Part shown: positions 18,149 to 63,775 of the stretch, piece by piece
Layout: the number at the start of each line of letters is the position of its first letter
Position numbering within the stretch: the stretch's first letter is position 1
Position numbers and translations under genes: made by a program
The notes under the pieces: model-generated
What the model was told of the DNA's origin: nothing
Database searches by the model: none
What the model saw: only the letters and a program-made list of their open reading frames with translations
Assembly: GCA_963737495.1 (NCBI GenBank)
Contig: CAVTSS010000009.1
Location: 57,167 to 121,166, forward strand
DNA: 64,000 nt
Reading direction: 5' to 3'
Source: Terriglobia bacterium
GTDB lineage: Bacteria; Acidobacteriota; Terriglobia; Bryobacterales; Bryobacteraceae

Positions 18149-18224
18149 TGCGGGCAGGTGTAACGGCTGCATTCGAGGCTCATAACCTCCGAGGTACTGA
18201 GTTCAATTCTCAGGCCCGCAACCA
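18149..18224 (+). tRNA. tRNA-Met(CAT)
   Basis: Acceptor TGCGGGC/GCCCGCA, loop CTCATAA, T arm CTGAG-TTCAATT-CTCAG, A73 plus CCA. Weak D stem, A at position 8, and a C:C mismatch in the anticodon stem. Confidence 0.75.
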
Positions 18225-18231
18225 TTTTCAA

Positions 18232-18306
18232 GCCGGAGTAGCTTAAGAGGAAAAGCCCTGGTCCTGTAAATCAGTGTTGGGATTTCGAGCATCCCCTCCG
18301 GCTCCA
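18232..18306 (+). tRNA. tRNA-Thr(TGT)
   Basis: Acceptor GCCGGAG/CTCCGGC, D stem GCTT/AAGC, anticodon stem CTGGT/ATCAG, loop CCTGTAA (C33), T arm GGGAT-TTCGAGC-ATCCC, CCA. Confidence 0.85.
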
Positions 18307-18309
18307 CAA

Positions 18310-18337
18310 GGCTGTTCGATTCAGCCACCGCGCTCCA
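18310..18337 (+). pseudogene. orphan tRNA 3' fragment (T arm + 3' acceptor strand + CCA)
   Basis: GGCTG-TTCGATT-CAGCC ACCGCGC T CCA, with no matching 5' half. It sits in the 37-nt gap between the two tRNA-Thr genes. Confidence 0.6.
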
Positions 18338-18343
18338 GATTTA

Positions 18344-18417
18344 GCCGGCGTAGCTCAGTGGCAGAGCAGTTGTTCGGTAAACAACAGACGAGCGTTCGAT
18401 TCGCTCCGTTGGCTCCA
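18344..18417 (+). tRNA. tRNA-Thr(GGT)
   Basis: Acceptor GCCGGCG/CGTTGGC (two G:U), D arm GCTC-AGTGGCA-GAGC, anticodon stem GTTGT/ACAAC, loop TCGGTAA (C33), T arm GAGCG-TTCGATT-CGCTC, CCA. Confidence 0.85.
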
Positions 18418-18425
18418 GATTTTTC

Positions 18426-18491
18426 GCGGGATTAACTGAACGGTGGCAGTCTTCCAAACTGCAAAGCCGGGTTGGACTCCCGGATCTTGCT
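18426..18491 (+). tRNA. tRNA-Gly(TCC), 66 nt with a reduced D arm
   Basis: Acceptor GCGGGAT/ATCTTGC (two G:U), 10-nt D arm ACT-GAAC-GGT without GG, anticodon stem GCAGT/ACTGC, loop CTTCCAA, T arm CCGGG-TTGGACT-CCCGG (G instead of C56). No CCA. Confidence 0.6.
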
Positions 18492-18502
18492 CTATCGTTT
18501 TT

Positions 18503-18576
18503 GCGAGTGTGGCCGATTGGTTAGGTTTCTGGTTGCCAGCCAGAACAACGCAGTTCGATTCTGCGCACTCGCTCCA
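18503..18576 (+). tRNA. tRNA-Gly(GCC)
   Basis: Acceptor GCGAGTG/CACTCGC, anticodon stem TCTGG/CCAGA, loop TTGCCAG, T arm CGCAG-TTCGATT-CTGCG, T73 plus CCA. Confidence 0.85.
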
Positions 18577-18581
18577 GGTTT

Positions 18582-18655
18582 GGGTTGGTAGCTCAACGGG
18601 AGAGCTCCGGTCCTGCAAACCAGCGATAAGGGTTCAATTCCCTTCCGATCCACCA
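18582..18655 (+). tRNA. tRNA-Ala(TGC)
   Basis: Acceptor GGGTTGG/CCGATCC with the G3:U70 Ala identity pair, D arm GCTC-AACGGGA-GAGC, loop CCTGCAA (C33), one C:A mismatch in the anticodon stem, T arm AAGGG-TTCAATT-CCCTT, CCA. Confidence 0.8.
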
Positions 18656-18658
18656 ATT

Positions 18659-18733
18659 GTGGCTGTAGCTTATACGGTAAAGCCGCTGGCTGTGAACCAG
18701 TGAAAGAGGATTCAAGCTCCTCCAGCCACCCCA
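18659..18733 (+). tRNA. tRNA-His(GTG)
   Basis: Acceptor GTGGCTG/CAGCCAC, D stem GCTT/AAGC, anticodon stem GCTGG/CCAGT, loop CTGTGAA, T arm GAGGA-TTCAAGC-TCCTC, C73 plus CCA. The base at -1 is T, so G-1 is not encoded. Confidence 0.85.
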
Positions 18734-18735
18734 TT

Positions 18736-18810
18736 GTGGGCGTCGTCCAAGGGATAGGGCATCGGTTTCCTAAACCGACGATCAGAGTTCGAGTCTCTGC
18801 GTCCATACCA
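18736..18810 (+). tRNA. tRNA-Arg(CCT)
   Basis: Acceptor GTGGGCG/CGTCCAT, D stem GTCC/GGGC, anticodon stem TCGGT/ACCGA, loop TTCCTAA, T arm CAGAG-TTCGAGT-CTCTG, CCA. Confidence 0.85.
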
Positions 18811-18813
18811 TTT

Positions 18814-18888
18814 CGGCCCGTCATCCAACGGGATAGTGTACAGCTCTCGGATAGCTGAGATCGCCGTTCGGTCGGCGCTGGCCGACCA
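18814..18888 (+). tRNA. tRNA-Pro(CGG), irregular copy
   Basis: C1:G72 acceptor CGGCCCG/CTGGCCG (one mismatch), anticodon stem CAGCT/AGCTG, loop CTCGGAT, T arm CGCCG-TTCGGT-CGGCG with only a 6-nt loop, CCA. Confidence 0.6.
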
Positions 18889-18913
18889 GTTCTTTGACAT
18901 TCGAATTCAACCT

Positions 18914-18988
18914 CGCGGATTCGCCAAGTGGTATGGCACCGGTTTCGGGAACCGGGTTTCCGGTGTTCGATTCACCCATCCGCGACCA
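18914..18988 (+). tRNA. tRNA-Pro(CGG)
   Basis: Acceptor CGCGGAT/ATCCGCG (C1:G72), D stem GCCA/TGGC, anticodon stem CCGGT/ACCGG, loop TTCGGGA (G37), T loop TTCGATT, CCA. Confidence 0.85.
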
Positions 18989-18990
18989 TA

Positions 18991-19069
18991 CGGGGAGTAT
19001 AGGAGTCTGGTTTATCTAACCTGCTTTGGAAGCAGGGGCACGTTGGTTCAAATCCAACCTCCCCGACCA
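18991..19069 (+). tRNA. tRNA-Pro(TGG)
   Basis: Acceptor CGGGGAG/CTCCCCG, anticodon stem CCTGC/GCAGG, loop TTTGGAA, T arm GTTGG-TTCAAAT-CCAAC, CCA. Confidence 0.85.
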
Positions 19070-19076
19070 TTTTCAT

Positions 19077-19150
19077 TCCTCGCTAGCTCAACGGTAGAGC
19101 GCGCGGCTGTTAACCGCGTTGTCGTGGTTCGATCCCACGGCGGGGAGCCA
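19077..19150 (+). tRNA. tRNA-Asn(GTT)
   Basis: Acceptor TCCTCGC/GCGGGGA (U1:A72), D arm GCTC-AACGGTA-GAGC, anticodon stem CGCGG/CCGCG, loop CTGTTAA, T arm CGTGG-TTCGATC-CCACG, G73 plus CCA. Confidence 0.9.
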
Positions 19151-19151
19151 T

Positions 19152-19225
19152 GCCCTGTTAGCTCAGTGGTAGAGCGCGAAGCTTACATCTTCGTAACCGG
19201 TGTTCGATTCATCGACGGGGCACCA
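19152..19225 (+). tRNA. tRNA-Val(TAC)
   Basis: Acceptor GCCCTGT/ACGGGGC, D arm GCTC-AGTGGTA-GAGC, anticodon stem CGAAG/CTTCG, loop CTTACAT, T arm CGGTG-TTCGATT-CATCG, CCA. Confidence 0.9.
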
Positions 19226-19230
19226 AGTTC

Positions 19231-19308
19231 GCAGGAAAAGCTCAGTGCGGCTTGAGCACTCGACCGATAATCGAGAGGCCGCTGGTTCGATCCCAGCTTC
19301 CTGCACCA
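19231..19308 (+). tRNA. tRNA-Ile(GAT)
   Basis: Acceptor GCAGGAA/TTCCTGC, D stem GCTC/GAGC, anticodon stem CTCGA/TCGAG, loop CCGATAA (C33), T arm GCTGG-TTCGATC-CCAGC, CCA. Confidence 0.85.
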
Positions 19309-19310
19309 AT

Positions 19311-19385
19311 GTCCCCGTGGTCTATCGGAATGGGCACCGCCCTTCTAAAGCGGCGAGGCTGGTTCAACTCCAGCCGGGGACCCCA
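19311..19385 (+). tRNA. tRNA-Arg(TCT)
   Basis: Acceptor GTCCCCG/CGGGGAC, anticodon stem CCGCC/AGCGG (one C:A mismatch), loop CTTCTAA, T arm GCTGG-TTCAACT-CCAGC, CCA. Confidence 0.8.
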
Positions 19386-19390
19386 ATCGA

Positions 19391-19462
19391 GGGGAGATGG
19401 CCGAGCGGCTAAGGCGCTGACTTTGAATCAGTCTTACGCACGTTCAGCTCGTGCTCTCCCTC
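19391..19462 (+). tRNA. tRNA-Gln(TTG)
   Basis: Acceptor GGGGAGA/TCTCCCT (G1:U72), Gln-like D arm GCCGAGCGGCTAAGGC, anticodon stem GCTGA/TCAGT, loop CTTTGAA, T arm GCACG-TTCAGCT-CGTGC. No CCA. Confidence 0.7.
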
Positions 19463-19492
19463 GCAGCGAATTGCGCTGGCGAAGTGGTTATC

Positions 19493-19567
19493 GAGACCGT
19501 GGCTTAGCGGCAGAAGCACGTGACTTTTGATCACGGGAGGCGAGTTCGCCTCTCGCCGGTCTCACCA
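19493..19567 (+). tRNA. tRNA-Lys(TTT)
   Basis: Acceptor GAGACCG/CGGTCTC, D stem GCTT/AAGC, anticodon stem CGTGA/TCACG, loop CTTTTGA (G37), T arm GCGAG-TTCGCCT-CTCGC, CCA. Confidence 0.85.
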
Positions 19568-19576
19568 AGGTTTCAC

Positions 19577-19653
19577 GAGGCAGTAGGCAAGAGGATTAAG
19601 CCGTAGCACTTTCAATGCTGAGATCGTGGGTTCGAATCCGATCTGCCTTACCA
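19577..19653 (+). tRNA. tRNA-Glu(TTC)
   Basis: Acceptor GAGGCAG/CTGCCTT, D stem GGC/GCC, anticodon stem TAGCA/TGCTG, loop CTTTCAA, T loop TTCGAAT (one stem mismatch), CCA. Confidence 0.8.
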
Positions 19654-19654
19654 T

Positions 19655-19729
19655 GTCCCCGTCGTCCAATGGACAGGACAGTTCGCTACGAACGAACAAA
19701 TCGGCGTTCAAATCGTCGCGGGGATACCA
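19655..19729 (+). tRNA. tRNA-Arg(ACG), array copy
   Basis: Acceptor GTCCCCG/CGGGGAT, D stem GTCC/GGAC, anticodon stem GTTCG/CGAAC, loop CTACGAA, T arm CGGCG-TTCAAAT-CGTCG, CCA. Confidence 0.85.
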
Positions 19730-19737
19730 GAGTTTAC

Positions 19738-19813
19738 GAAGTGGTGGCCGAGCGGCAGAGGCACTTCACTGTCTATGAAGACTAAGCGGGTTCGACTCCC
19801 GTCCACTTCGCCA
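19738..19813 (+). tRNA. tRNA-Asp(GTC)
   Basis: Acceptor GAAGTGG/CCACTTC, anticodon stem CTTCA/TGAAG, loop CTGTCTA (pyrimidine at 37), Asp-like T arm GCGGG-TTCGACT-CCCGT, G73 plus CCA. Confidence 0.8.
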
Positions 19814-19820
19814 TTAGTTT

Positions 19821-19895
19821 GTCCCTGTCTTCTAGTGGCAGGAAAGCGGACTCTCAATCCGCGAGCGAGAGTTCGATTCTCTCCCGGGGAGCCCA
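19821..19895 (+). tRNA. tRNA-Glu(CTC)
   Basis: Glu-like body GTCCCTG TC TTCT AGTGGCA GGAA, anticodon stem GCGGA/TCCGC, loop CTCTCAA, T arm GAGAG-TTCGATT-CTCTC. The 3' acceptor strand pairs imperfectly. Confidence 0.7.
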
Positions 19896-19901
19896 GTGGG
19901 G

Positions 19902-19945
19902 CTGTCGCAACTTGACAGGCTGGAACCACGGAACATGATCCAGCC
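19902..19945 (+). promoter_or_regulatory. two adjacent hairpins in the 78-nt tRNA-Glu/rtcB spacer
   Basis: CTGTC-gcaactt-GACAG (19902-19918) and GGCTGGA-accacggaacatga-TCCAGCC (19918-19945), followed by GAGGA RBS 19964-19968. Confidence 0.35.
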
Positions 19946-19973
19946 CGGTAGCCTTTAAGAATTGAGGAAAATC

Positions 19974-21155
19974 ATGCGACTTGAAGGAAAGATAGCGATT
20001 TTCGGCGAGCACGAGGACAATACCATTCAGCAGATCCGCCGCGCGGCAGCCCCGGCATTTGTGCGTCAGGCGGTCTTGTGCGCGGACGGCCACAAGGGCT
20101 ACGCCGTGCCGATCGGTGGCGTTGTCGCGTACGAAGACGCGATATCCCCGTCCGGCGTCGGCTACGATATCGCGTGCGGGAACAAGGCCATCCTGACGGA
20201 CGCCAATGCTGACGAGGTCAAGGCCAACATCTCGAAGATTATGGACGATGTTTGGCGCACGGTATCATTTGGCGTCGGGCGCAAGAATGAGGACGAGCGC
20301 GTTGACCATGATCTATTCGACGATCCGGCATGGAAGGTAGGAGCCTGCGCTCCGCTAAAGGAGATGGCGCGTCAGCAACTCGGGACCGTTGGGTCAGGCA
20401 ATCATTACGTCGATATTTTCGAAGATGAGCAGGGCCGGATTTGGGTGGGGGTCCACTTCGGCTCCCGTGGTCTCGGTCACAAAACTGCGACATGGTTCCT
20501 GAAGGCCGCAGGTGCGTCGGACGGCATGGATGTCGACCCGTGCGTCTTGCCGGTAGGATCAGACTTGGGCGCTCAATATCTCGAAGGGATGCGCCTTGGC
20601 GGATTATATGCCTACGCCGGCCGCGATTGGGTGTGCACACGCGTCGCGCGGATTCTGGGGGCGAACGTTATCGAAGAGGTTCACAATCACCACAATTTCG
20701 CGTGGCGCGAGAATCACGGTGGTCGCGATCTGTGGGTCGTCCGTAAGGGCGCGACGCCGGCATTCCCCGGCCAGCGCGGATTCGTTGGCGGGAGCATGGG
20801 CGACATGTCAGTGATCATCGAAGGCGTGGAGCACGCGGACGCGGCACATTCTCTCTATTCGACCGTGCACGGAGCCGGACGAGTAATGGGGCGCATGGAG
20901 GCTAAGGGTAAGGTTGACCGAAAGACCGGCGAAGTGAAGAGGGCTGGCAAGGTCACGCAGGAAATGATGGCTGCGTGGGTTCACCGTGAAGGCGTCGAAC
21001 TCCGTGGAGCGGGCTTGGACGAATCGCCACATTGCTACAAGCGGTTGCCTGACGTTCTCGCGCAACATGACCGGTCGATAAAGATCCTGCACACTCTGCG
21101 ACCGCTGGGTGTCGCGATGGCTTCAGCATTTGAGTTTGATCCGTTCAAAGATTGA
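19974..21155 (+). CDS. rtcB: RNA ligase RtcB (short bacterial form) embedded in the tRNA array
   Basis: 393 aa. CADGHKGYAVPIGGV, GYDIACGN, GSGNHYVD, HFGSRGLGH, HNHHN and TVHGAGR motifs are present. ATG 19974 has a GAGGA RBS (track ORF starts at TTG 19962). Confidence 0.92.
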   Translation: MRLEGKIAIFGEHEDNTIQQIRRAAAPAFVRQAVLCADGHKGYAVPIGGVVAYEDAISPSGVGYDIACGNKAILTDANADEVKANISKIMDDVWRTVSFGVGRKNEDERVDHDLFDDPAWKVGACAPLKEMARQQLGTVGSGNHYVDIFEDEQGRIWVGVHFGSRGLGHKTATWFLKAAGASDGMDVDPCVLPVGSDLGAQYLEGMRLGGLYAYAGRDWVCTRVARILGANVIEEVHNHHNFAWRENHGGRDLWVVRKGATPAFPGQRGFVGGSMGDMSVIIEGVEHADAAHSLYSTVHGAGRVMGRMEAKGKVDRKTGEVKRAGKVTQEMMAAWVHREGVELRGAGLDESPHCYKRLPDVLAQHDRSIKILHTLRPLGVAMASAFEFDPFKD

Positions 21156-21160
21156 CCTTT

Positions 21161-21236
21161 GGCTGGCAAGCTAATCAGGTGAAAGCACCAGTCTGAAAAG
21201 CCGGATAGCCTGGATCGATACCAGGGCCAGCCACCA
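21161..21236 (+). tRNA. tRNA-Phe(GAA)
   Basis: Acceptor GGCTGGC/GCCAGCC, anticodon stem CCAGT/GCCGG (one A:C mismatch), loop CTGAAAA, T arm CCTGG-ATCGATA-CCAGG (atypical loop), CCA. It starts 5 nt after the rtcB stop. Confidence 0.8.
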
Positions 21237-21243
21237 AGGTTGC

Positions 21244-21318
21244 AGGGGATTAGCAAAGTGGGAATGCATCTGGCTCTGACCCAGACATGACGAGGTTCGA
21301 TTCCTCGATCCCCTGCCA
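21244..21318 (+). tRNA. tRNA-Gln(CTG)
   Basis: Acceptor AGGGGAT/ATCCCCT (weak 1:72 pair), anticodon stem TCTGG/CCAGA, loop CTCTGAC, T arm CGAGG-TTCGATT-CCTCG, G73 plus CCA. Confidence 0.85.
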
Positions 21319-21327
21319 AACATTTTC

Positions 21328-21356
21328 TTGCGAATTCGGTATTTCACGGATATACT
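21328..21356 (+). promoter_or_regulatory. sigma70-like internal promoter candidate of the array
   Basis: TTGCGA (21328-21333), 17-nt spacer, TATACT (21351-21356), in the only long (140 nt) tRNA-free gap of the array. Confidence 0.45.
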
Positions 21357-21458
21357 GATCACATGAACCGCGCACTCAGTTTATCCCGCCTATCGCGCGC
21401 CTCCTGGTCGACATCGCGACTCAGTGGGTTGTGTTCATATTCAAGCCTCTAAAGTTCT

Positions 21459-21532
21459 CCAGTCGATCCTGAACGGCCAAGGGGCTGCCTGCAAAGCAGC
21501 TATTCGCAGTTCGACTCTGCGCGACTGGTCCA
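21459..21532 (+). tRNA. tRNA-Cys(GCA)
   Basis: Acceptor CCAGTCG/CGACTGG, anticodon stem GCTGC/GCAGC, loop CTGCAAA, T arm CGCAG-TTCGACT-CTGCG, T73 plus CCA. Confidence 0.85.
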
Positions 21533-21534
21533 AT

Positions 21535-21619
21535 GCCCCGCTGGTGGAATTGGGAGACACGCTGGTCTTAGAAACCAGTGCTTTCGGGCGTGGGGGTTCA
21601 AGTCCCTCGCGGGGCACCA
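21535..21619 (+). tRNA. tRNA-Leu(TAG), type II
   Basis: Acceptor GCCCCGC/GCGGGGC, anticodon stem CTGGT/ACCAG, loop CTTAGAA, long variable arm TGCTTTCGGGCGT, T arm GGGGG-TTCAAGT-CCCTC, A73 plus CCA. Confidence 0.9.
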
Positions 21620-21634
21620 AAGTTCTTTGACATT

Positions 21635-21723
21635 GGGAGGTGGCGCTGAATGGTCGGCGAGCGGTCCTGAAAACCGTGCCGTGGTGCTGAGCCACGAGGG
21701 TTCGATTCCTTCACCTCCCGCCA
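21635..21723 (+). tRNA. tRNA-Ser(TGA), type II
   Basis: Acceptor GGGAGGT/ACCTCCC, anticodon stem GCGGT/ACCGT, loop CCTGAAA (C33), variable arm hairpin CCGTGG-tgctga-GCCACG, T arm GAGGG-TTCGATT-CCTTC, G73 plus CCA. Confidence 0.85.
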
Positions 21724-21730
21724 GGTTTGT

Positions 21731-21806
21731 GTGGGTGAGGCTCGATTGGGAGAGCTGCGGTCTCCAAAGCCGTTATTTGAGAGTTCGAATCTCTCCACCC
21801 ATGCCA
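21731..21806 (+). tRNA. tRNA-Trp(CCA)
   Basis: Acceptor GTGGGTG/CACCCAT, D stem GCTC/GAGC, loop CTCCAAA, T arm GAGAG-TTCGAAT-CTCTC, G73 plus CCA. Confidence 0.85.
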
Positions 21807-21807
21807 C

Positions 21808-21899
21808 CGAGAGCGAGGCGGACGGTAAGCCACCTCACTGCTAATGAGGCAAGCGCCGGTTGACGGTGCGACGCGGTTCGACTCCGCGGCTCTCGGCCA
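21808..21899 (+). tRNA. tRNA-Ser(GCT), type II
   Basis: Acceptor CGAGAGC/GCTCTCG, anticodon stem CCTCA/TGAGG, loop CTGCTAA, 22-nt variable arm, T arm CGCGG-TTCGACT-CCGCG, G73 plus CCA. Confidence 0.85.
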
Positions 21900-21905
21900 G
21901 ATTAT

Positions 21906-21990
21906 GGGTATCAGGCGGACGTGGCGGGCCGCGCTGCGCTGTAAACGCAGTTCTTCGGACGACGGGGTTCGAATCCCTGGATACCCACCA
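21906..21990 (+). tRNA. tRNA-Tyr(GTA), type II
   Basis: Acceptor GGGTATC/GATACCC, anticodon stem CTGCG/CGCAG, loop CTGTAAA, variable arm TTCTTCGGACGA, T arm CGGGG-TTCGAAT-CCCTG, A73 plus CCA. Confidence 0.9.
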
Positions 21991-21998
21991 AAGTTGAC

Positions 21999-22073
21999 GC
22001 TGGTGTAGCCCAATTGGCAGGAGGCGACTCGCTTAAGACGAGTTCAGTGCGCGTTCGAATCGCGTCACCAGCA
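21999..22073 (+). tRNA. tRNA-Leu(TAA) with a short (5-nt) variable loop
   Basis: Acceptor GCTGGTG/CACCAGC, 3-bp D stem GCC/GGC with a large loop, anticodon stem ACTCG/CGAGT, loop CTTAAGA (G37), variable TCAGT, T arm GCGCG-TTCGAAT-CGCGT, A73. No CCA. Confidence 0.7.
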
Positions 22074-22077
22074 CCGC

Positions 22078-22151
22078 GGGCCGCTAGCAGAATTGGTATA
22101 TGCACTCGCCTCAAGAGCGAGAGGATCTCGGTTCGAGTCCGAGGCGGCCCA
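22078..22151 (+). tRNA. tRNA-Leu(CAA) with a short (5-nt) variable loop
   Basis: Acceptor GGGCCGC/GCGGCCC, anticodon stem CTCGC/GCGAG, loop CTCAAGA (G37), variable AGGAT, T arm CTCGG-TTCGAGT-CCGAG, A73. No CCA. Confidence 0.75.
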
Positions 22152-22520: not shown

Positions 22521-23567
22521 ATGCAAAACTTGACGGAAAAGTTGACAAGGCTTGGCGCGATCGCGCTTCTGGCCGGTGCGGCAGTCAGCGCGCAAAACCA
22601 GAGCGGGCAACCCCTTGTGGTTACTGCGACGAACGCCGCTTCCAACCAGTTGCTGGTTTACAACACCAGGGCGCAGCTAATCCAAACGGTCAGTACGCAG
22701 GGTCAGGGCGGCGTGAGCGGGAACGCGGGCGGCATCGCCGTCCATGATCAGCAGATTGCCGTGGTCAACTTCGGGTCGAAGTCGGTCTCATTGTTCACGC
22801 AGGAAGGGAACGCCTTCAAAGTGATGCGGATCATCCCTGCCGCTTCGAGCCCGGTGAGCGTGGCATTCGGAAACGACCATCTCTACATCCTGGGAACGAC
22901 AACGATTGAGTCGCATCAAATGTATGGCAACGAGATTAATACGAACCCCGACGGGATGGCCCGCCTGTTCAAGGCCGATGGCTCCGCGGCGCAGGTGGGG
23001 GTGGTTGAGAACCAGCTCGTCATCAGCGAGAAGGGCACTCCGGGCGCGATCGTCGCCGGTAGTTCAGGGAACGGCGTGATTGAGACGGTGAACCTGTCGG
23101 CAACCGGTGCGATCAGCGGTGGCACGGTCCGGGAAGTTGCGGGCAGCCTCAACGCGCCCTTCGGGTTGGCGACCCGCGGCAATGACGCTTACGTCACCAT
23201 CGCCCACGCCAACGAAATCAGCCTGGTGAGGAATGACGCGGTCCTCACGATCACCGGCTCCGGGACGCAGAACGCCCCTTGCTGGGTGGCGCTCGACGGA
23301 CCTTTCCTGTTCTCCTCCAATTCGCCGAGCCAGACCATTTCGCGCTACGCAGTCTACGGGCAGAAGATCGTGCAGGACGCCGCCGTGGTTGCTTCCCTCG
23401 CCGGCGATCCGACCGATATTGCCTATCGGCAAGGGACGGTCGCGGTCATTGACGGCGTCAACCTCTCGATCTTCAGTGTGGACGAGGATGGGAATCTTGT
23501 TCTTTCCGGACGCGCGCCGATCACCAGCGTGGATAACGGGGCCGCTATCGTCTCCGGTCAGAATTAG
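22521..23567 (+). CDS. secreted beta-propeller (lactonase/YncE-like) protein
   Basis: Signal peptide MQNLTEKLTRLGAIALLAGAAVSAQ, then repeated ...V..F....V.. blades. AGGAGA RBS before ATG 22521. Confidence 0.65.
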   Translation: MQNLTEKLTRLGAIALLAGAAVSAQNQSGQPLVVTATNAASNQLLVYNTRAQLIQTVSTQGQGGVSGNAGGIAVHDQQIAVVNFGSKSVSLFTQEGNAFKVMRIIPAASSPVSVAFGNDHLYILGTTTIESHQMYGNEINTNPDGMARLFKADGSAAQVGVVENQLVISEKGTPGAIVAGSSGNGVIETVNLSATGAISGGTVREVAGSLNAPFGLATRGNDAYVTIAHANEISLVRNDAVLTITGSGTQNAPCWVALDGPFLFSSNSPSQTISRYAVYGQKIVQDAAVVASLAGDPTDIAYRQGTVAVIDGVNLSIFSVDEDGNLVLSGRAPITSVDNGAAIVSGQN

Positions 23568-23621: not shown

Positions 23622-24293
23622 GTGAATGAGAGCAGATCCAGGATTTGCACGATAGATCTGTATGCAGGTAGCCTCACTCTTGCAGGACTCGCCGCTAGAC
23701 TGCGGGTCGCTGGGAAAGCCTTCGTGAGCTCTCCCTTAGCGTCCGAGTGGGCGCGCGATGAGAAGCTGGAGGCGTTGATGTCCCGGTATCAGAGCGGGGA
23801 TCACGACGCCGCCCACCTCCTCATCGGGCGTGTGACTCCACTGCTACACCGTTACTTCCTGATCCACGCTGCAGATCGTCGATATGCGGATGACCTGGTA
23901 CAGGAAACCTGGATGCGAATACACAAGGCGCGTCACACCCACCGGCGCGGCGAACCTGTCCTACCATGGATTTTCGCGATTGCACGGCATACCAGCCTGG
24001 ACGCTTACCGTAAGGCGCGGCGCATCGAAGTTCACGAGCGACAGGTGGACTCGCTACCGGAACGGCCGCCGTGGAATCCCGGGTCCGCAGCAAACGGTCC
24101 GGATCTCGACGTGATGCTCGGGTCGTTGCCGAAGACGCAGCGCGAAGTGATCGTCATGCTGAAAATCTTGGGGATGACAATTGAGGAGGCGGCACGGGCC
24201 ACTTCATCGAGTGCGGGTTCAGTAAAACAGAAAGCGTTTCGCGCGTATAAAAAGTTGCGCGAAGTGCTGTCGCTTGGGATGAATGTGAGATGA
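23622..24293 (+). CDS. ECF-family RNA polymerase sigma factor (start uncertain, possibly GTG 23724)
   Basis: LMSRYQSGDHDAAHLLIGRVTPLLHRYF...DDLVQETWMRIHKARHT (region 2) and PKTQREVIVMLKILGMTIEEAARATSSSAGSVKQKAFRAYKKLR (region 4). Confidence 0.85.
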   Translation: MNESRSRICTIDLYAGSLTLAGLAARLRVAGKAFVSSPLASEWARDEKLEALMSRYQSGDHDAAHLLIGRVTPLLHRYFLIHAADRRYADDLVQETWMRIHKARHTHRRGEPVLPWIFAIARHTSLDAYRKARRIEVHERQVDSLPERPPWNPGSAANGPDLDVMLGSLPKTQREVIVMLKILGMTIEEAARATSSSAGSVKQKAFRAYKKLREVLSLGMNVR

Positions 24294-25003
24294 CGCCGGA
24301 CGAGATCGACAGAATCCTCGCCGAAGCAGCGAAGCGCGCCTCCCCGGACGACGGCGCGCCAGACGCCATGGTTCGGCGCGCGGAGGATGCCATCCTCGCG
24401 GATCTGCGTCCGGTCCGGCCGTTGGCGTCCGCCTGGGTCTTTACGATGGTCTTGGTCGCGATATTCCTGGCGTTCGCCGCGGTGAGCGCCTTGGTCCTCG
24501 GTCTGCACGGCCTCGCTGCTCTCGATGCGGCTCAGATTGCGCTCATCTTGCCGGCGCTGCTGTGCGCGGCATGGCTGGCGGCGGCGGCGTGCGTCCGCGA
24601 GATGAGCCCAGCGGCTGGACCTCGGCTCGACATCATTGCTCTGGCTCTTGCAGCGGCGGGTTTTCCGATCCTTTTCGCCCTGGTGTTTCACGGCTACAGT
24701 TCGGGCGATCTGGTGAAAGAAGGCGTCCCATGTCTTGTCACCGGATTGTGCGTGGCGATCCCCACCGGCCTCACCATCGCATTGATCTTTCGCCGCGGCT
24801 TCGTGCTCGCGTGGAGCGCGGCGGGCTTAGCCGCGGGGGTTTTGTCGGGACTCGCCGGTCTCGGAACGCTAGAATTGCACTGCGCCAACTTGAAGGCGAT
24901 CCACGTAATCATCTGGCATGTGGGTGTGGTATTGGTCAGCGGACTCTTCGGATTCGGTTCCGGCCGGATCGTTGACTCTTACCGTGCTAATTCAGCGCGC
25001 TAG
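24290..25003 (+). CDS. NrsF/DUF1109-type anti-sigma factor (multi-pass membrane)
   Basis: ATGA overlap with the sigma gene. Short cytoplasmic N-terminus followed by six hydrophobic helices. Confidence 0.65.
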   Translation: MTPDEIDRILAEAAKRASPDDGAPDAMVRRAEDAILADLRPVRPLASAWVFTMVLVAIFLAFAAVSALVLGLHGLAALDAAQIALILPALLCAAWLAAAACVREMSPAAGPRLDIIALALAAAGFPILFALVFHGYSSGDLVKEGVPCLVTGLCVAIPTGLTIALIFRRGFVLAWSAAGLAAGVLSGLAGLGTLELHCANLKAIHVIIWHVGVVLVSGLFGFGSGRIVDSYRANSAR

Positions 25004-31362: not shown

Positions 31363-31439
31363 TGGTGCGCCCGGCATGACTCGAACATGCGACCTTCTGG
31401 TTCGTAGCCAGACGCTCTATCCAACTGAGCTACGGGCGC
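31363..31439 (-). tRNA. tRNA-Arg(ACG), canonical housekeeping-type copy
   Basis: Reverse complement GCGCCCG TA GCTC AGTTGGATA GAGC G TCTGG CTACGAA CCAGA AGGTC GCATG TTCGAGT CATGC CGGGCGC A CCA. All stems are perfect. Confidence 0.95.
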
Positions 31440-31441
31440 GC
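31396..31441. repeat. attL-like 46-bp direct repeat (tRNA-Arg positions 1-44 plus 2 nt upstream)
   Basis: tctggttcgtagccagacgctctatccaactgagctacgggcgcgc is identical to 63730-63775. Confidence 0.85.
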
Positions 31442-31565: not shown

Positions 31566-32825
31566 TCAGACGAGACACGCATTGGCCGCCTCCGCGCGGA
31601 GCTGCTCCTCGTGCTTGCACTGCCGTTCGAGTAGCTCCGCCTCGAGTGCGATCGCCGCAGCCTTCACCGCCGCCGGGATCGCCTGTTGGTAATGCCTCAA
31701 CGTTACCTGCGGGTCCGCGTGGCGCATATGGGCTTGGGTCGATTTCGGATCCTTCGCCTTCCCTCCGAACAGCGTTGACGAGGTACGCCGGAGAGATTGG
31801 AAGTTCAGCGCCGTCGTTTCCTTGCCCTTGGAGTCCTTCGTGATGGCGATGCCGGCGCGGATCGCCGCTGGCTTCAGCACGCGCCTGAGAAAGTTCGCCG
31901 GGCGAATCGGCACATCCTTGTGGCTCGAAGGGAACAGCCAGGCCGTGGGGCTCGGGTCGATTGTCTCCAGGTAGTGCCTCAACTCGGTCGCGAGGTCTGG
32001 CGGAAGGAAGACGGATGAGGCCGATGCCAGGGTCTTGGGTTCCTTCGTGCGGCCGTTCACCATCGCCTCGTCGATCACCAATTCCTGATCGCGAACGTCG
32101 TTTCTCCGAAGTGCGCACCATTCCTCAGATCGAAGCCCGAGTTGCACAAGGATGCGGATGGCGACGTGATCGCGGCCGGATACCCCCGTGTACAGGGCGA
32201 CGCATTCTTCAGAAGTGTGCGACAGATTGCAGCGCCGCTTCCTCGACTTGGCCTTCAGATTCCGTGCCGGGTTGCGGTCGATCAGCCTGCGATCGACGGC
32301 GACATTCAGAATCGCGCGCAAGTGCGTTGTCAGCTTCGAGAGCAACGACACACTGGAACTGGCTTCCACGTAGCCGTTGATGAACCGTTGAAGCTCGGCG
32401 TCCGCCAGTTCCCGAACCGGGCGCGCGCCGAGTTTTCCGATCAGGTGAATCTTAATCAGGTTCGCGCTAACCCGCCTTTCGTTGTCTCCCCAGTTAGGTT
32501 TGTTCAGGTCAACGTACTCGCGCGCCAGCTCGCCGAACGTGGTCCTGGTCGTGAAAGCCATGGGCGCGGAGTTGCTTTCGCCGATGAGCTTGCCGAGGAC
32601 CTTCCAGGCATCTGTTTTGATCAGTGGGCCGGCGTAGTCGAGAACGAATCCCATTTTCTCCGCCAGGGCGCGGTCGATGATTTTTGAGGGCCGCTTAACG
32701 CACTCGGTTCCGTCAGGTCGGCGGACATAGAGTCTCCATCGCGACCAGTAACGGCCGCGCTGGAGCTTGCCGCGGCGCGGCGGCGATTCGCGGATCTCGC
32801 CCTGTTGCGATTTAGGCCTGGACAT
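31566..32825 (-). CDS. tyrosine-type site-specific integrase
   Basis: ...LRILVQLGLRSEEWCALRRNDV...KTLASASSVFLPPDL...NFQSLRRTSSTLFG...QAHMRHADPQVTLRHYQQ (R..HxxR..Y pattern). ATG 32825 was chosen because it avoids overlap with the upstream HTH gene. Confidence 0.85.
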   Translation of the reverse strand: MSRPKSQQGEIRESPPRRGKLQRGRYWSRWRLYVRRPDGTECVKRPSKIIDRALAEKMGFVLDYAGPLIKTDAWKVLGKLIGESNSAPMAFTTRTTFGELAREYVDLNKPNWGDNERRVSANLIKIHLIGKLGARPVRELADAELQRFINGYVEASSSVSLLSKLTTHLRAILNVAVDRRLIDRNPARNLKAKSRKRRCNLSHTSEECVALYTGVSGRDHVAIRILVQLGLRSEEWCALRRNDVRDQELVIDEAMVNGRTKEPKTLASASSVFLPPDLATELRHYLETIDPSPTAWLFPSSHKDVPIRPANFLRRVLKPAAIRAGIAITKDSKGKETTALNFQSLRRTSSTLFGGKAKDPKSTQAHMRHADPQVTLRHYQQAIPAAVKAAAIALEAELLERQCKHEEQLRAEAANACLV

Positions 32826-32866
32826 ATGGCGACCAACCTGTTTCAGGTCAACCGGCAGCACAGAGG

Positions 32867-33067
32867 TTACCATGCAGTCTTCCCTCCTGATATGCGGATG
32901 CACTCCGCGATGAACTGTTCAACGTCTTCTCGCCGGAACCGCACGGCCTTGCCGAGCTTCACAGACGTCAGCCGTGGACGGCGCCGGCTCGCATGGTCCA
33001 GCACCCAAGCCACGGACATGCCAAGCCAGTCGGCGACCTGTTTCGGCGTTAGAAGACTCTCAAGCAT
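32867..33067 (-). CDS. excisionase/AlpA-like helix-turn-helix protein
   Basis: LLTPKQVADWLGMSVAWVLDHASRRRPRLTSVKLGKAVRFRREDVEQFI. Confidence 0.7.
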   Translation of the reverse strand: MLESLLTPKQVADWLGMSVAWVLDHASRRRPRLTSVKLGKAVRFRREDVEQFIAECIRISGGKTAW

Positions 33068-33217: not shown

Positions 33218-34537
33218 TCATAAATTCGTCCTCAGTCCGATTCCGAAATAGAGATTGCCGCGGTCGGTGTGCTTCTTTTCAAAGTGATGGCCATCCGTGA
33301 GCCGTTTGCCGAAAGCCGTTTCCGTCAAGGAGTCGCGCTCTCCGGTCTGTTCCACCCAGGTTTTGTATGCCGCATAAAGATTTCTGCCGAGAGCAGAAAC
33401 GCGCTCGCCAACGACACAGCGATCGTCAATAAACCGGCCTACCTGGTCGCTCTCAGAGCGGTAGTCGCCTGTGGCCTTCATCACGGAGTCGGGCGACGGC
33501 AATCCTTCCGCCTGCCAATGCAAGCATCCCTCGACGGCCCACGCGAGCACACCCGGCAGCTCATCCAGCAGCGCGGCTTTGAGCGTCCGGTCCTCGCGGC
33601 CCTCGAATGACACGTCAAACGGGATCAGTCGAATCCTAGACCAGATGGCGGGGTCCGTCCCGCGAATCGTTGGCTTATAGTTGCTCGCCAGCCAAATCTT
33701 CCAGGTAGGATCGAACTCGTAAGAATTCTCGTGGAGCTTTCGGGCTCGCACCCGATCGCCACCGGTCAACCATTTGACAATTGATTCCGCGAGCGGCGCG
33801 CCCTCGCGCGCTTCTTGTGCGGTGACCAAGCGCCGGCCTTTCATGTTGGCGATGTCGTCGCGCGGGCTGCGATCGTCGCGCGTCGCGATGAACGTGGAGA
33901 AATCGCTAGTGCCGGCGTAGTCGCCCATCACCGCGGCGAGAATCTTCAGAAGCGTACCCTTCCCGTTTCGTCCCGTGCCATTCAGCAAGAAAAGACACTC
34001 TTCGCGAGTGTCCGCGGTCAGCGAATAACCGGCCGCCAGCTGCATAAACGGAACGATGTCCGGGTGCAGTTCAAACACTTCCGAAAGAAATCTCAACCAG
34101 CGCGGACATTTGGCATCGCGGCGATATTCCACCGGTGCCAGCCGCGTCATCAGATCCTCGCGGCGGTGTCGACATAGTGTGCCCGTCCGCAGATCGATCG
34201 TGCCGTTGGCGACGTTGAACAGCATCGGATCCACGTCGAGCTCAGACGGCAGCACGGGAACACCGGCTTCCGACGCTGCAAGTCGAACCATGGCCGCGAG
34301 CTGGGCCGCCTTCTCTGACCGCTTTGCCCATTCTGCGGTAGCGGTGCGGAGCGTCGCATCGTCCAAGCCGGCGGCCTCCTGGTAGATGCCACGGACGGTG
34401 TCCTTAGCCCAGCGTTCCATTTGGCCGAGTTCATCGTCGATCCAGCGTCGGCCGTCGTGAACGAGAAACACTCCCCGCGGTCCGCAATAACGGAACCTTT
34501 CACCGTAGGCTGTCACCAACCTTTCGGCATTTCCCAA
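33218..34537 (-). CDS. phage/plasmid primase, P4 family (D5-type NTPase domain)
   Basis: LFLLNGTGRNGKGTLLKILAAVMGDY (Walker A), RLVTAQEAREG, KWLTGGDRVRARKLHENSYEF. TTG start. Confidence 0.85.
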   Translation of the reverse strand: MGNAERLVTAYGERFRYCGPRGVFLVHDGRRWIDDELGQMERWAKDTVRGIYQEAAGLDDATLRTATAEWAKRSEKAAQLAAMVRLAASEAGVPVLPSELDVDPMLFNVANGTIDLRTGTLCRHRREDLMTRLAPVEYRRDAKCPRWLRFLSEVFELHPDIVPFMQLAAGYSLTADTREECLFLLNGTGRNGKGTLLKILAAVMGDYAGTSDFSTFIATRDDRSPRDDIANMKGRRLVTAQEAREGAPLAESIVKWLTGGDRVRARKLHENSYEFDPTWKIWLASNYKPTIRGTDPAIWSRIRLIPFDVSFEGREDRTLKAALLDELPGVLAWAVEGCLHWQAEGLPSPDSVMKATGDYRSESDQVGRFIDDRCVVGERVSALGRNLYAAYKTWVEQTGERDSLTETAFGKRLTDGHHFEKKHTDRGNLYFGIGLRTNL

Positions 34538-63729: not shown

Positions 63730-63775
63730 TCTGGTTCGTAGCCAGACGCTCTATCCAACTGAGCTACGGGCGCGC
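63730..63775. repeat. attR-like 46-bp direct repeat (orphan 5' half of tRNA-Arg)
   Basis: Identical to 31396-31441. There is no tRNA 3' half beside it. Confidence 0.85.

What the first reader, a model, noticed from the sequence alone, without database searches (positions are those of the whole stretch)
18232..21723. C instead of the near-universal U at anticodon-loop position 33 in five array tRNAs, plus odd position-37 bases
Seen in sequence: the 7-nt anticodon loops read CCTGTAA (Thr-TGT, 18232..18306), TCGGTAA (Thr-GGT), CCTGCAA (Ala-TGC), CCGATAA (Ile-GAT) and CCTGAAA (Ser-TGA). In each case the flanking 5-bp stem fixes the register, so position 33 is C. In addition, Asp-GTC has a pyrimidine at 37 (CTGTCTA) and Lys-TTT has G37 (CTTTTGA). 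Established knowledge: U33 is one of the most conserved tRNA nucleotides (it forms the U-turn). Anticodon nucleases cut within or next to positions 32-38 and read loop identity. Phage T5 tRNAs have been reported to escape such nucleases through anticodon-loop substitutions. Inference: a repeated substitution at the same position in five unrelated isoacceptors is unlikely to be random decay. It could be a nuclease-evasion signature, or it could mark these genes as non-translational tRNA-like RNAs.
Basis: partly seen in the sequence, partly recalled or inferred. Interest (0 to 1): 0.7.

Follow-up and report, generated by a model that had tools for sequence, protein, structure and literature searches.

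The report
C33 tRNAs in RtcB-linked array
Five intact tRNA genes in a horizontally acquired tRNA array carry C instead of the almost invariant U before the anticodon, and the same swap recurs in the same tRNA types across related arrays and phages, so it is a maintained variant and not decay.

Summary
ARAGORN and the Rfam tRNA model agree on the register. C33 is present in Thr-UGU, Thr-GGU, Ala-UGC, Ile-GAU and Ser-UGA. Asp-GUC has U37 and Lys-UUU has G37.

The genes lie in a long tRNA array (about 31 tRNA genes, all 20 amino acids) with an intact rtcB RNA ligase embedded, in a chromosome that is probably acidobacterial.

I pooled 29 RtcB-linked arrays, giving 542 unique tRNAs.
- 78 (14%) have C33 and none has A or G.
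- C33 is concentrated in Thr-GGU (11/15), Ile-GAU (11/16), Ala-UGC (8/15) and Val-UAC (6/11).
- It is absent from Lys-UUU, Gln, Met, Phe, Arg-ACG, Arg-UCU and Ile-UAU.
- This pattern replicated in an independent metagenome set.
- C33 tRNAs are not more degenerate than U33 array tRNAs.
- The state switches between close relatives.
- General phage tRNA clusters show 1% C33, and isolated chromosomal tRNAs 0/19.
- The same Ile-GAU anticodon arm with C33 occurs in Klebsiella/Raoultella phages and a Pseudomonas megaplasmid.

The U37 and G37 oddities are singletons.

Most likely these are working tRNAs with a selectively maintained loop variant. Evasion of loop-directed nucleases or toxins is plausible but untested. 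Near-neutral tolerance is a serious rival.

The parts
18149..22151 (+). Long tRNA array (L-array). It holds 27 tRNA genes by default ARAGORN plus 4 weaker tRNA or tRNA-like genes, covers all 20 amino acids, and is interrupted by rtcB.
   Evidence: That is 27-31 genes in 4.0 kb. Most spacers are 2-10 nt. CCA is encoded in 24 of 27.
18232..18306 (+). tRNA-Thr(UGU), loop CCUGUAA, C33 at 18264
   Evidence: ARAGORN. Rfam RF00005 49.2 bits with C in the U33 column. G1-C72 and C2-G71 are kept.
18344..18417 (+). tRNA-Thr(GGU), loop UCGGUAA, C33 at 18375
   Evidence: Rfam 61.0 bits. C33 in 11 of 15 unique Thr-GGU of related arrays.
18582..18655 (+). tRNA-Ala(UGC), loop CCUGCAA, C33 at 18613
   Evidence: Rfam 55.3 bits. 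G3:U70 is kept. C33 in 8 of 15 related Ala-UGC.
19231..19308 (+). tRNA-Ile(GAU), loop CCGAUAA, C33 at 19265, anticodon arm CUCGA-CCGAUAA-UCGAG
   Evidence: Rfam 60.4 bits. C33 in 11 of 16 related Ile-GAU. The same arm is found in Raoultella phage Ro1, pMPPla107 and 63 viral contigs.
21635..21723 (+). tRNA-Ser(UGA), class II, loop CCUGAAA, C33 at 21667
   Evidence: Long variable arm and G73. Best Rfam hit is the tRNA-Sec model at 44.9 bits, below its gathering score of 47. The anticodon is UGA, not UCA.
19738..19813 (+). tRNA-Asp(GUC), loop CUGUCUA, U37 at 19774
   Evidence: Related arrays have A37 or G37 at this position, so U37 is a singleton.
19493..19567 (+). tRNA-Lys(UUU), loop CUUUUGA, G37 at 19529
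   Evidence: In the first set of related arrays all eight other Lys-UUU loops read CUUUUAA.
19974..21155 (+). rtcB, a 3'-phosphate/5'-OH RNA ligase (393 aa), embedded between the two tRNA blocks
   Evidence: Pfam PF01139, 1.9e-66. PDB RtcB matches with the DGH-GY, GYDIxCG, GSGNH, GSRGLGH and HGAGR motifs aligned. The start at ATG 19974 is confirmed by exact-protein look-up.
18149..18224 (+). tRNA-Met(CAU)-like gene with a short D-loop, loop CUCAUAA (U33)
   Evidence: ARAGORN at relaxed threshold. Not reported by Rfam at E <= 1.
21161..21236 (+). tRNA-Phe(GAA), loop CUGAAAA (U33)
   Evidence: Rfam RF00005 46.8 bits. ARAGORN relaxed.
31363..31439 (-). Non-array tRNA-Arg(ACG), loop CUACGAA (U33). 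This is the only housekeeping comparator in the window.

Best explanation
The five genes are working members of a horizontally acquired long tRNA array. The array supplies a spare tRNA for every amino acid and carries its own RtcB ligase, which reseals tRNAs cut to 2',3'-cyclic-phosphate and 5'-OH ends.

C33 is a selectively maintained variant of array-borne and phage-borne tRNAs. It keeps a pyrimidine at the U-turn, so the tRNA can still be charged and can still decode. It also changes the base and the local geometry that anticodon-loop-directed enzymes meet. These enzymes are anticodon nucleases or modifying toxins, and possibly U33-dependent modification enzymes. The spare tRNA is therefore handled differently from the housekeeping isoacceptor when the tRNA pool is attacked.

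Decoding limits where the swap is allowed. It is common in tRNAs with a purine at position 35 or that read family boxes (Thr, Ala, Val, Ser; Ile-GAU). It is excluded from tRNAs that read purine-ending codons of split boxes (Lys, Gln, Glu, Arg-YCU, Met, Trp, Ile-UAU) and from Arg-ACG and Phe.

Shown: the substitution exists, it is restricted to pyrimidine, it is isoacceptor-specific, it recurs, the genes are intact, and it is linked to RtcB arrays.

Inferred: expression, charging, decoding, and evasion as the selective agent.
For: 1. The register is fixed by two methods.
2. Of 542 unique tRNAs from 29 RtcB-linked arrays, 78 have C33 and 0 have A or G.
3. The isoacceptor bias found in set 1 (split-box purine-ending 2/127 against 50/217, Fisher 4e-9) replicates in an independent metagenome set (4/86 against 22/111).
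4. C33 tRNAs deviate at other conserved positions as often as U33 array tRNAs (0.71 against 0.63). They have fewer stem mismatches (0.69 against 1.29) and 96% encode CCA. Their 31:39 closing pair is Watson-Crick in 77/78 against 198/235 (Fisher 2e-4).
5. C33 is 13 times more frequent in these arrays than in 1315 viral-cluster tRNAs. Other conserved positions differ only about 2-fold. The per-array C33 fraction does not track overall degeneracy (rho 0.09).
6. Close relatives differ in state: Thr-GGU in L047 has C and in L092 has U; Thr-UGU in L092 has C and in L007/L047 has U. At least 18 changes are needed on a tree of 107 Ile-GAU sequences.
7. The same Ile-GAU arm with C33 occurs in lytic Klebsiella/Raoultella phages, in Pseudomonas megaplasmid pMPPla107 and in 63 viral contigs.
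8. RtcB is intact. Nucleases that cut next to position 33 and leave RtcB-ligatable ends exist: CdiA-CT EC536 cuts between 32 and 33 (PMC11724271).
9. Some loop enzymes need U33 and others do not (PMC8887486, PMC4105751), so C33 can change recognition.
10. Phage tRNAs that escape tRNases through anticodon-arm substitutions are documented (PMC10264068, PMC12409363).
Against: - No nuclease or toxin is identified in the window or the related loci.
- The classical nuclease targets (Lys-UUU, Gln, Glu, Arg) are the tRNAs that lack C33.
- Gamma-toxin cuts C33 substrates as well as U33 substrates (PMC2275089).
- The isoacceptor pattern can also be read as simple tolerance.
- U33 and C33 coexist among close relatives.
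- A cultured acidobacterial jumbo phage with RtcB and 37 tRNAs has no C33, and neither does the Anabaena L-array.
- Expression and charging were not tested.
- The housekeeping isoacceptors of this genome were not available.
Confidence: 0.4

Rival explanations
1. Near-neutral tolerance under relaxed selection. The array tRNAs are rarely used spares, so selection on decoding speed is weak. U33C is the least harmful change at this position. It drifts to appreciable frequency only in tRNAs where a weakened U-turn costs little (purine 35, strong or family-box codons). No enzyme is being evaded.
For: - Array tRNAs deviate from many invariant positions: U8 21%, G53 8%, C56 8%, C61 8%.
- C33 rate by base 35 is G 35%, A 17%, C 9%, U 5%. 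This fits the established U-turn contact between the 2'-OH of residue 33 and N7 of a purine at 35.
- C33 is nearly absent from the weak, split-box decoders.
- Both states occur in close relatives.
- U33 mutations lower translational efficiency and U33 may be a GlnRS determinant (PMC3664417). That would explain the exclusions without invoking a nuclease.
Against: - C33 is enriched 13-fold over viral clusters, while other conserved positions are enriched only about 2-fold. It does not correlate with per-array degeneracy.
- It is the majority state in Thr-GGU and Ile-GAU.
- Phe-GAA, Met-CAU and Ile-UAU have a purine at 35 and yet show 0/65.
- C33 tRNAs have better stems than U33 ones.
- C33 Ile-GAU is common in lytic phages that depend on their tRNAs.
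Confidence: 0.3
2. Non-translational role. The C33 tRNAs act as decoys or sponges for tRNA-targeting RNases, or as substrates for another tRNA-dependent pathway, and not as decoders.
For: - A sponge role was proposed for cyanobacterial L-array tRNAs, some of which are cleaved under stress (PMC8421152).
- U33 mutations are reported to lower translational efficiency (PMC3664417).
- An adjacent RtcB could recycle cut decoys.
Against: - Aminoacylation identity elements and encoded CCA are conserved.
- A decoy should mimic the housekeeping loop, not differ from it.
- The array covers all 20 amino acids.
- 23 of 26 Anabaena array tRNAs are charged, and the ones tested were found on polysomes (PMC8421152).
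- The pyrimidine-only restriction and the isoacceptor pattern follow decoding logic.
Confidence: 0.1
3. RNA editing. The genomic C33 is deaminated to U (or converted to pseudouridine) after transcription, so the mature tRNA is canonical. Precedents are C8-to-U8 editing in Methanopyrus kandleri and C32-to-pseudouridine editing in Vibrio cholerae tRNA-Tyr (both from my own knowledge).
For: A genomic C at an otherwise invariant U in many tRNAs of one system is the signature that led to the Methanopyrus discovery. Only C, never a purine, replaces U.
Against: - Clustering ORFs around 26 arrays found only RtcB, an HNH endonuclease (15 arrays) and a TROVE/vWA protein (3 arrays). No deaminase was found.
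- The same C33 Ile-GAU occurs in very different hosts. That would need a portable or universal editor.
- U33 and C33 alternate freely among relatives.
Confidence: 0.07
4. Artefact or pseudogenes. The anticodon loop is mis-registered, or the tRNA genes are decaying.
For: Array tRNAs as a class are non-canonical, and a few neighbours in the window are degenerate (the Gly-UCC-like and Pro-CGG-like genes).
Against: - Two independent predictors agree. The register is strictly best in 76/78.
- Four of the five score 49-61 bits on the general tRNA model, against a gathering score of 29. Ser-UGA is detected as a class-II tRNA.
- The array is 100% identical in six contigs from separate metagenome samples.
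- No transversions occur at position 33.
Confidence: 0.03

Closest known systems
[quoted passage not shown]
   Same: - More than 20 densely packed tRNA genes in non-periodic order.
- Supernumerary copies.
- Patchy, horizontally spread distribution.
- Non-canonical tRNA sequences.
- HNH endonuclease and RtcB as recurrent neighbours or co-regulated genes.
- Asp-GUC with G37 is shared with the Anabaena array.
   Different: - Here rtcB sits inside the array.
- The host phylum (Acidobacteriota, inferred) was listed as lacking L-arrays in the 2021 survey.
- 14% of the tRNAs have C33, whereas the Anabaena array has 0/24. I found no report of C33 in arrays in the library searched.
Phage tRNAs that escape host tRNases through anticodon-arm substitutions: mycobacteriophage C1 cluster, T5 tRNA-Lys/Thr/Asn against PARIS AriB (PMC10264068, PMC12409363)
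   Same: - tRNAs borne on mobile elements whose anticodon arm differs from the host norm.
- Complete or near-complete tRNA sets.
- Association with RNA repair enzymes.
   Different: - The documented escape substitutions lie at positions 32 and 37-41, at known cleavage sites, and not at the invariant U33.
- The nuclease is known there and unknown here.
- Phage Sf14 and its host have U33 in all 25 compared pairs (PMC12482277).
Eukaryotic cytoplasmic initiator tRNA-Met with C33 (PMC8887486)
   Same: A natural, functional tRNA with C33. C33 acts there as an anti-determinant for some t6A machineries, including E. coli TsaBCDE in vitro.
   Different: It is a eukaryotic initiator that binds the P site. 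Here the tRNAs are bacterial elongator types for Thr, Ile, Ala, Ser and Val, and the array Met-CAU tRNAs keep U33 (0/21).
RtcB RNA repair modules: the E. coli rtcBA operon and the Salmonella rsr-yrlBA-rtcBA operon (the operon layouts are from my own knowledge; RtcB's role in repairing cleaved tRNA is cited in PMC8421152)
   Same: An RtcB with intact catalytic motifs next to tRNA or tRNA-like RNAs. Three related arrays also carry a Ro60-like TROVE/vWA protein.
   Different: No RtcA, RtcR or archease was found among the neighbours scanned. The partner RNAs are full tRNA sets, not Y RNAs.
C8-to-U8 tRNA editing in Methanopyrus kandleri (CDAT8) and C32 editing in Vibrio tRNA-Tyr (both from my own knowledge)
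   Same: A genomic C at a position where U is otherwise invariant, in many tRNAs of one system.
   Different: No deaminase is linked to the arrays. Editing is untested.

Membership tests
tRNA array unit / L-array | At least 20 tRNA genes at a density of at least 2 per kb (definition in PMC4758250) | tested here: met
   27 genes (31 with relaxed calls) in 18149-22151, about 7 per kb.
tRNA array unit / L-array | Supernumerary genes that duplicate housekeeping isoacceptors | tested here: inconclusive
   The array Arg-ACG (19655-19729) duplicates the separate chromosomal Arg-ACG at 31363-31439. The rest of the genome is not available.
tRNA array unit / L-array | Patchy distribution that indicates horizontal transfer | tested here: met
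   The flanking genes have no counterparts next to other arrays. The closest RtcB relatives (L001-L006, 69-77% identity) have no array. Related arrays occur on IMG/VR contigs.
tRNA array unit / L-array | HNH endonuclease and RtcB in the neighbourhood (PMC8421152) | tested here: met
   RtcB is embedded in the array. An HNH ORF lies inside 15 of 26 related arrays but not in the window.
tRNA array unit / L-array | Silent in normal growth and induced under translational stress; tRNAs charged | not testable with these tools
   Needs RNA data. The promoter scan was not above chance.
Canonical bacterial elongator tRNA | Cloverleaf that scores above the Rfam gathering threshold | tested here: met
   41-63 bits against 29 for 25 array tRNAs. 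Four of the five C33 tRNAs score 49-61 bits, and Ser-UGA is detected as a class-II tRNA.
Canonical bacterial elongator tRNA | U at position 33 | tested here: not met
   C33 in five tRNAs.
Canonical bacterial elongator tRNA | Purine at position 37 | tested here: met
   A37 in all five C33 tRNAs. Not met by Asp-GUC, which has U37.
Canonical bacterial elongator tRNA | Synthetase identity elements. The E. coli rules are from established knowledge. | tested here: met
   Ala has G3:U70 and A73. Both Thr have G1-C72 and C2-G71. Ile has A73, C29-G41 and U12-A23. Ser has a long variable arm and G73. All 11 Ala-UGC sequences aligned (ten from arrays, one from phage Tunturi_5) keep G3:U70.
Nuclease-evading phage tRNAs | Encoded by a phage or other mobile element | tested here: inconclusive
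   The window array is chromosomal, with no integrase adjacent to it. The integrated element at 31.4-63.8 kb is separate. Relatives lie on IMG/VR contigs.
Nuclease-evading phage tRNAs | A substitution at the recognition or cleavage site of a host tRNase, relative to the host isoacceptor | not testable with these tools
   Neither the host isoacceptors nor the nuclease are known.
Nuclease-evading phage tRNAs | Demonstrated resistance to cleavage | not testable with these tools
   Needs biochemistry.
RtcB RNA repair operon | RtcB with metal-binding and GMP-histidine motifs | tested here: met
RtcB RNA repair operon | Partner genes RtcA, RtcR or archease adjacent | tested here: not met
   Pfam scans of the neighbouring ORFs found none of these.
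Edited tRNAs (CDAT8 or TrcP type) | An associated cytidine deaminase | tested here: inconclusive
   No deaminase is among the conserved array neighbours. A gene elsewhere in the genome cannot be excluded.
tRNA-Sec | UCA anticodon and a score above the gathering threshold | tested here: not met
   The Ser-UGA gene scores 44.9, below 47, and its anticodon is UGA.

The most novel reading that the evidence does not exclude
C33 marks a class of 'armoured' spare tRNAs. A still unknown family of U33-dependent anticodon-loop nucleases or tRNA-modifying toxins is common in soil Acidobacteriota and also present in enterobacteria and pseudomonads. It targets Thr-GGU, Ile-GAU, Ala-UGC, Val-UAC and Ser tRNAs. 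Arrays and phages answer with U33C versions that still decode, backed by RtcB resealing. On this reading the most conserved nucleotide of tRNA is an arms-race site.
Probability: 0.3. Interest if true: 0.85.

Novelty: new variant of a known kind. Interest (0 to 1): 0.66.

Why it matters
U33 is treated as invariant in elongator tRNAs and as essential for the U-turn. Here about one in seven tRNAs of a whole class of mobile tRNA arrays carries C33, as does a large share of phage tRNA-Ile(GAU). The pattern is reproducible and specific to certain isoacceptors.

If these tRNAs decode, they define natural limits of U-turn chemistry on the bacterial ribosome. They also show which decoding tasks tolerate C33.

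If C33 protects against tRNA-targeting enzymes, it points to unknown defence or toxin activities directed at Thr, Ile, Ala and Val tRNAs. It would also give a simple sequence marker for counter-defence tRNAs.

The finding also extends L-arrays to Acidobacteriota, and ties them physically to RtcB.

Tried and rejected
- **Alternative stem registers.** Rejected.
- **Ser-UGA as tRNA-Sec.** Rejected. The score is below the gathering threshold and the anticodon is wrong.
- **Array as part of the integrase-bearing element at tRNA-Arg.** Rejected. The 46-bp repeats bound 31396-63775, to the right of the array.
- **Synteny of flanking genes with other arrays.** None found.
- **Population polymorphism to measure selection.** Six contigs from separate metagenome samples are 100% identical (one shows a single gap), so there was no signal.
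- **C33 as a general property of L-arrays or of acidobacterial phage tRNAs.** Rejected. Anabaena has 0/24 and Tunturi_5 has 0/36.
- **C33 explained by overall degeneracy.** Not supported.
- **A conserved deaminase or other accessory gene that explains C33.** Only RtcB, HNH and TROVE/vWA recur.
- **Promoter and terminator scan.** Not above chance.
- **Retrieving the same genome's housekeeping Thr, Ile, Ala and Ser tRNAs.** Not possible.
- **The Mycobacterium avium plasmid array.** Not examined.
- **Literature.** Searches on C33, U33C and tRNA array found no report of C33 in arrays or phage tRNAs in the held library.

Full report
**Observation**

ARAGORN finds 27 tRNA genes on the + strand between 18232 and 22151, and one more on the - strand at 31363-31439. 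Parsing its structures gives 7-nt anticodon loops closed by 5-bp stems:
- CCTGTAA (Thr-TGT)
- TCGGTAA (Thr-GGT)
- CCTGCAA (Ala-TGC)
- CCGATAA (Ile-GAT)
- CCTGAAA (Ser-TGA)
- CTGTCTA (Asp-GTC, U37)
- CTTTTGA (Lys-TTT, G37)

I checked the coordinates against the raw sequence. The C33 bases are at 18264, 18375, 18613, 19265 and 21667. The Rfam tRNA covariance model aligns the same C to its U33 column with maximal posterior probability for Thr-GGT, Ile-GAT and Ala-TGC and Thr-TGT. The class-II alignment of Ser-TGA gives the same loop.

**Context**

The genes form a long tRNA array.
- Relaxed ARAGORN settings and Rfam add Met-CAT (18149-18224), a Gly-TCC-like gene, a Pro-CGG-like gene and Phe-GAA (21161-21236). 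All 20 amino acids are then covered.
- The two tRNA blocks are separated by rtcB (19974-21155). This ORF matches Pfam RtcB and solved RtcB structures, with the metal-binding and GMP-histidine motifs in place.
- The flanks look chromosomal: rhomboid, DUF308, an ECF sigma factor with NrsF, cytochrome P460.
- An integrase-bearing element bounded by 46-bp repeats lies to the right of the non-array tRNA-Arg and does not include the array.
- The closest RtcB sequences come from Acidobacteriota MAGs, so the host is probably acidobacterial. This is an inference.
- The identical array occurs in six contigs from separate metagenome samples.

**Relatives**

I searched three collections with RtcB: species-representative genomes, IMG/VR and JGI metagenomes. 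This recovered 28 further arrays with RtcB inside or beside them, mostly from Acidobacteriota MAGs and soil or peat samples. Fifteen of 26 arrays also contain an HNH endonuclease ORF, and three contain a Ro60-like TROVE/vWA protein. HNH and RtcB are the neighbours reported for cyanobacterial L-arrays (PMC8421152). The window meets the published array definition (PMC4758250). That survey-type work listed Acidobacteria among phyla without L-arrays (PMC8421152).

**C33 across arrays**

In the first 16 arrays (344 unique tRNAs), position 33 is U in 292, C in 52, and never a purine. The distribution is strongly isoacceptor-specific:
- High: Ile-GAT 8/12, Thr-GGT 7/11, Ala-TGC 5/9, Val-TAC 3/7, Ser-CGA 3/6, Cys 3/6.
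- Zero: Phe, Met, both Gln, both Lys, Arg-ACG, Arg-TCT, Arg-CCT, Ile-TAT, Asp, Trp and Gly-TCC.

Grouped by decoding task, tRNAs that read purine-ending codons of split boxes have 2/127, against 50/217 for the rest (Fisher 4e-9). These counts are not phylogenetically independent.

I then used the metagenome arrays as a replicate. Among 197 new unique tRNAs there are 26 C33 and no purines. Thr-GGT has 4/4, Ile-GAT 3/4, Val-TAC 3/4 and Ala-TGC 3/6. The split-box purine-ending group has 4/86.

Combined, 78 of 542 have C33: Thr-GGT 11/15, Ile-GAT 11/16, Ala-TGC 8/15, Val-TAC 6/11.

**Not decay**

- C33 tRNAs deviate at other invariant positions as often as U33 array tRNAs. They have fewer stem mismatches and encode CCA equally often.
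- Their 31:39 closing pair is Watson-Crick in 77/78, against 198/235 in U33 tRNAs of the same isoacceptors (Fisher 2e-4).
- In the window, four of the five score 49-61 bits, and Thr-GGT and Ile-GAT are among the best in the array.
- Identity elements for AlaRS, ThrRS, IleRS and SerRS are kept (the rules are from established E. coli work).

**Background rates**

- Isolated tRNAs near RtcB relatives: 0/19.
- The window's own non-array Arg-ACG: U33.
- The Anabaena L-array: 0/24.
- The acidobacterial jumbo phage Tunturi_5, which also carries RtcB, a CCA-adding enzyme and 37 tRNAs: 0 C33.
- Three other cultured phages: 4/70.
- Viral-cluster tRNAs: 1.1% of 1315.
- Phage Sf14 and its Shigella host: U33 throughout (PMC12482277).

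Arrays are only about twice as deviant as viral clusters at other conserved positions, but 13 times as deviant at position 33. The per-array C33 fraction does not follow overall degeneracy.

**Recurrence**

Neighbour-joining trees show C and U states interleaved, with close pairs that differ.

The window's Ile-GAT anticodon arm, CUCGA-CCGAUAA-UCGAG, is shared with Raoultella phage Ro1 and with one of two Ile-GAU genes in the Pseudomonas megaplasmid pMPPla107 array. Exact-pattern scans of IMG/VR find 63 contigs with the C33 arm and 103 with the U33 arm. On a tree of 107 unique Ile-GAU sequences at least 18 state changes are needed, against 36 for shuffled labels. Viral contigs whose Ile-GAU has C33 also have more C33 in other tRNAs (15/547 against 4/808).

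**Position 37**

In the first set of related arrays, Asp-GUC has A37 or G37. G37 is also seen in Anabaena and Tunturi_5. Only the window has U37. In that same set all eight other Lys-UUU loops have A37. These two features are singletons. I do not treat them as part of the C33 pattern.

**Mechanism**

The pyrimidine-only restriction, the intact genes and the decoding-related exclusions argue that these tRNAs work on the ribosome.

C33 frequency follows base 35: G 35%, A 17%, C 9%, U 5%. This fits the known U-turn contact between the 2'-OH of residue 33 and N7 of a purine at 35. But Phe, Met and Ile-UAU have A35 and never show C33, so structure alone does not explain the pattern.

U33 matters for some loop enzymes and not for others.
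- E. coli TsaBCDE fails on a U33C initiator in vitro (PMC8887486), yet the TsaBD-tRNA structure shows no base-specific contact to U33 (PMC13276492).
- S. aureus TrmJ needs U33 and E. coli TrmJ does not (PMC4105751).
- Gamma-toxin is indifferent to C33 (PMC2275089).
- U33 may be a GlnRS determinant (PMC3664417).

Nucleases that cut beside position 33 and leave RtcB-ligatable ends exist (PMC11724271). A toxin that targets the anticodon loop of tRNA-Thr(GGU) has been described (PMC13617354). Phage tRNAs escape tRNases through nearby substitutions (PMC10264068, PMC12409363).

I therefore favour a maintained variant that changes recognition by loop-directed enzymes in a tRNA-pool rescue module (confidence 0.4). 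Near-neutral tolerance is the main rival (0.3), followed by decoy function (0.1), editing (0.07) and artefact (0.03).

**Verdict**

It extends to a whole class of RtcB-linked arrays and to phage tRNA-Ile. I found no description of it in the literature I could search. It is a new variant of a known kind (L-arrays and mobile-element tRNAs). The evasion reading remains a hypothesis. The key missing data are the same genome's housekeeping isoacceptors, and expression, charging and cleavage assays.

Noticed in passing
window 31396-31441 and 63730-63775; integrase 31566-32903 (-); D5-type primase 33218-34537 (-): A 46-bp perfect direct repeat that covers the 5' part of the non-array tRNA-Arg(ACG) bounds a roughly 32-kb stretch. 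That stretch starts with a tyrosine integrase and a D5/primase gene. It is probably an integrated mobile element, separate from the tRNA array.
   Followed up: partly
window 18149-18224, 18415-18490, 18814-18888, 21161-21236: Four extra tRNA or tRNA-like genes are missed by default ARAGORN: Met-CAT with a 5-nt D-loop, degenerate Gly-TCC-like and Pro-CGG-like genes, and Phe-GAA (Rfam 46.8 bits). With them the array covers all 20 amino acids.
   Followed up: partly
window array, position 8 of Ile-GAT, Cys-GCA, Trp-CCA and Tyr-GTA (A8), Ser-TGA and Ser-GCT (G8), Glu-CTC (C8); related arrays: The invariant U8 is replaced in about 21% of array tRNAs, mostly by A. The rate in viral clusters is 11%. 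This is another unusual departure from the canonical tRNA core and I did not analyse it further.
   Followed up: partly
L007, L014, L029, L030, L031, L037, L085, L086, L087, L101, L386, L387, L389, L392, L399 (for example L389 1248-1826): A conserved HNH endonuclease ORF of about 180 aa sits between tRNA genes in 15 of 26 related arrays, as reported upstream of cyanobacterial L-arrays. The window's array has none.
   Followed up: partly
L085 8547-9956, L092 11654-13123, L406 2953-4290: A TROVE plus vWA (Ro60/Rsr-like) protein is encoded next to RtcB in three arrays. This recalls the Rsr-Y RNA-RtcB repair operons. Rfam also gave a weak YrlA-like hit across two window tRNAs (19096-19209, 22 bits, below threshold).
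   Followed up: no
L007, L014, L029, L030, L031, L037, L078 and metagenome arrays: Most related arrays carry tRNA-Ile with a UAU anticodon (22 unique sequences). This anticodon is rare in bacteria, which normally read AUA with a lysidine-modified CAU tRNA. The window's array lacks it.
   Followed up: no
window 21635-21719: The Ser-UGA gene scores higher on the Rfam tRNA-Sec model (44.9 bits, just under the gathering score of 47) than on the general tRNA model. The long variable arm explains this. The anticodon is UGA, so it is not tRNA-Sec.
   Followed up: yes
window 22524-23567 (+): A 347-aa ORF directly downstream of the array has no Pfam match and no counterpart next to other arrays. An ECF sigma factor with NrsF anti-sigma pair follows at 23622-25003.
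   Followed up: partly
L173 (pMPPla107, record positions 701985-714843): The Pseudomonas megaplasmid array contains a tandemly repeated block (Lys-TTT, Asn-GTT, Tyr-GTA, Gln-CTG) and two different Ile-GAU genes, one with C33 and one with U33.
   Followed up: no
L001-L006 and many of L340-L385: The RtcB proteins closest to the window's (69-79% identity) mostly have no tRNA array within 10 kb. The embedded ligase is therefore not a distinct array-only lineage.
   Followed up: partly
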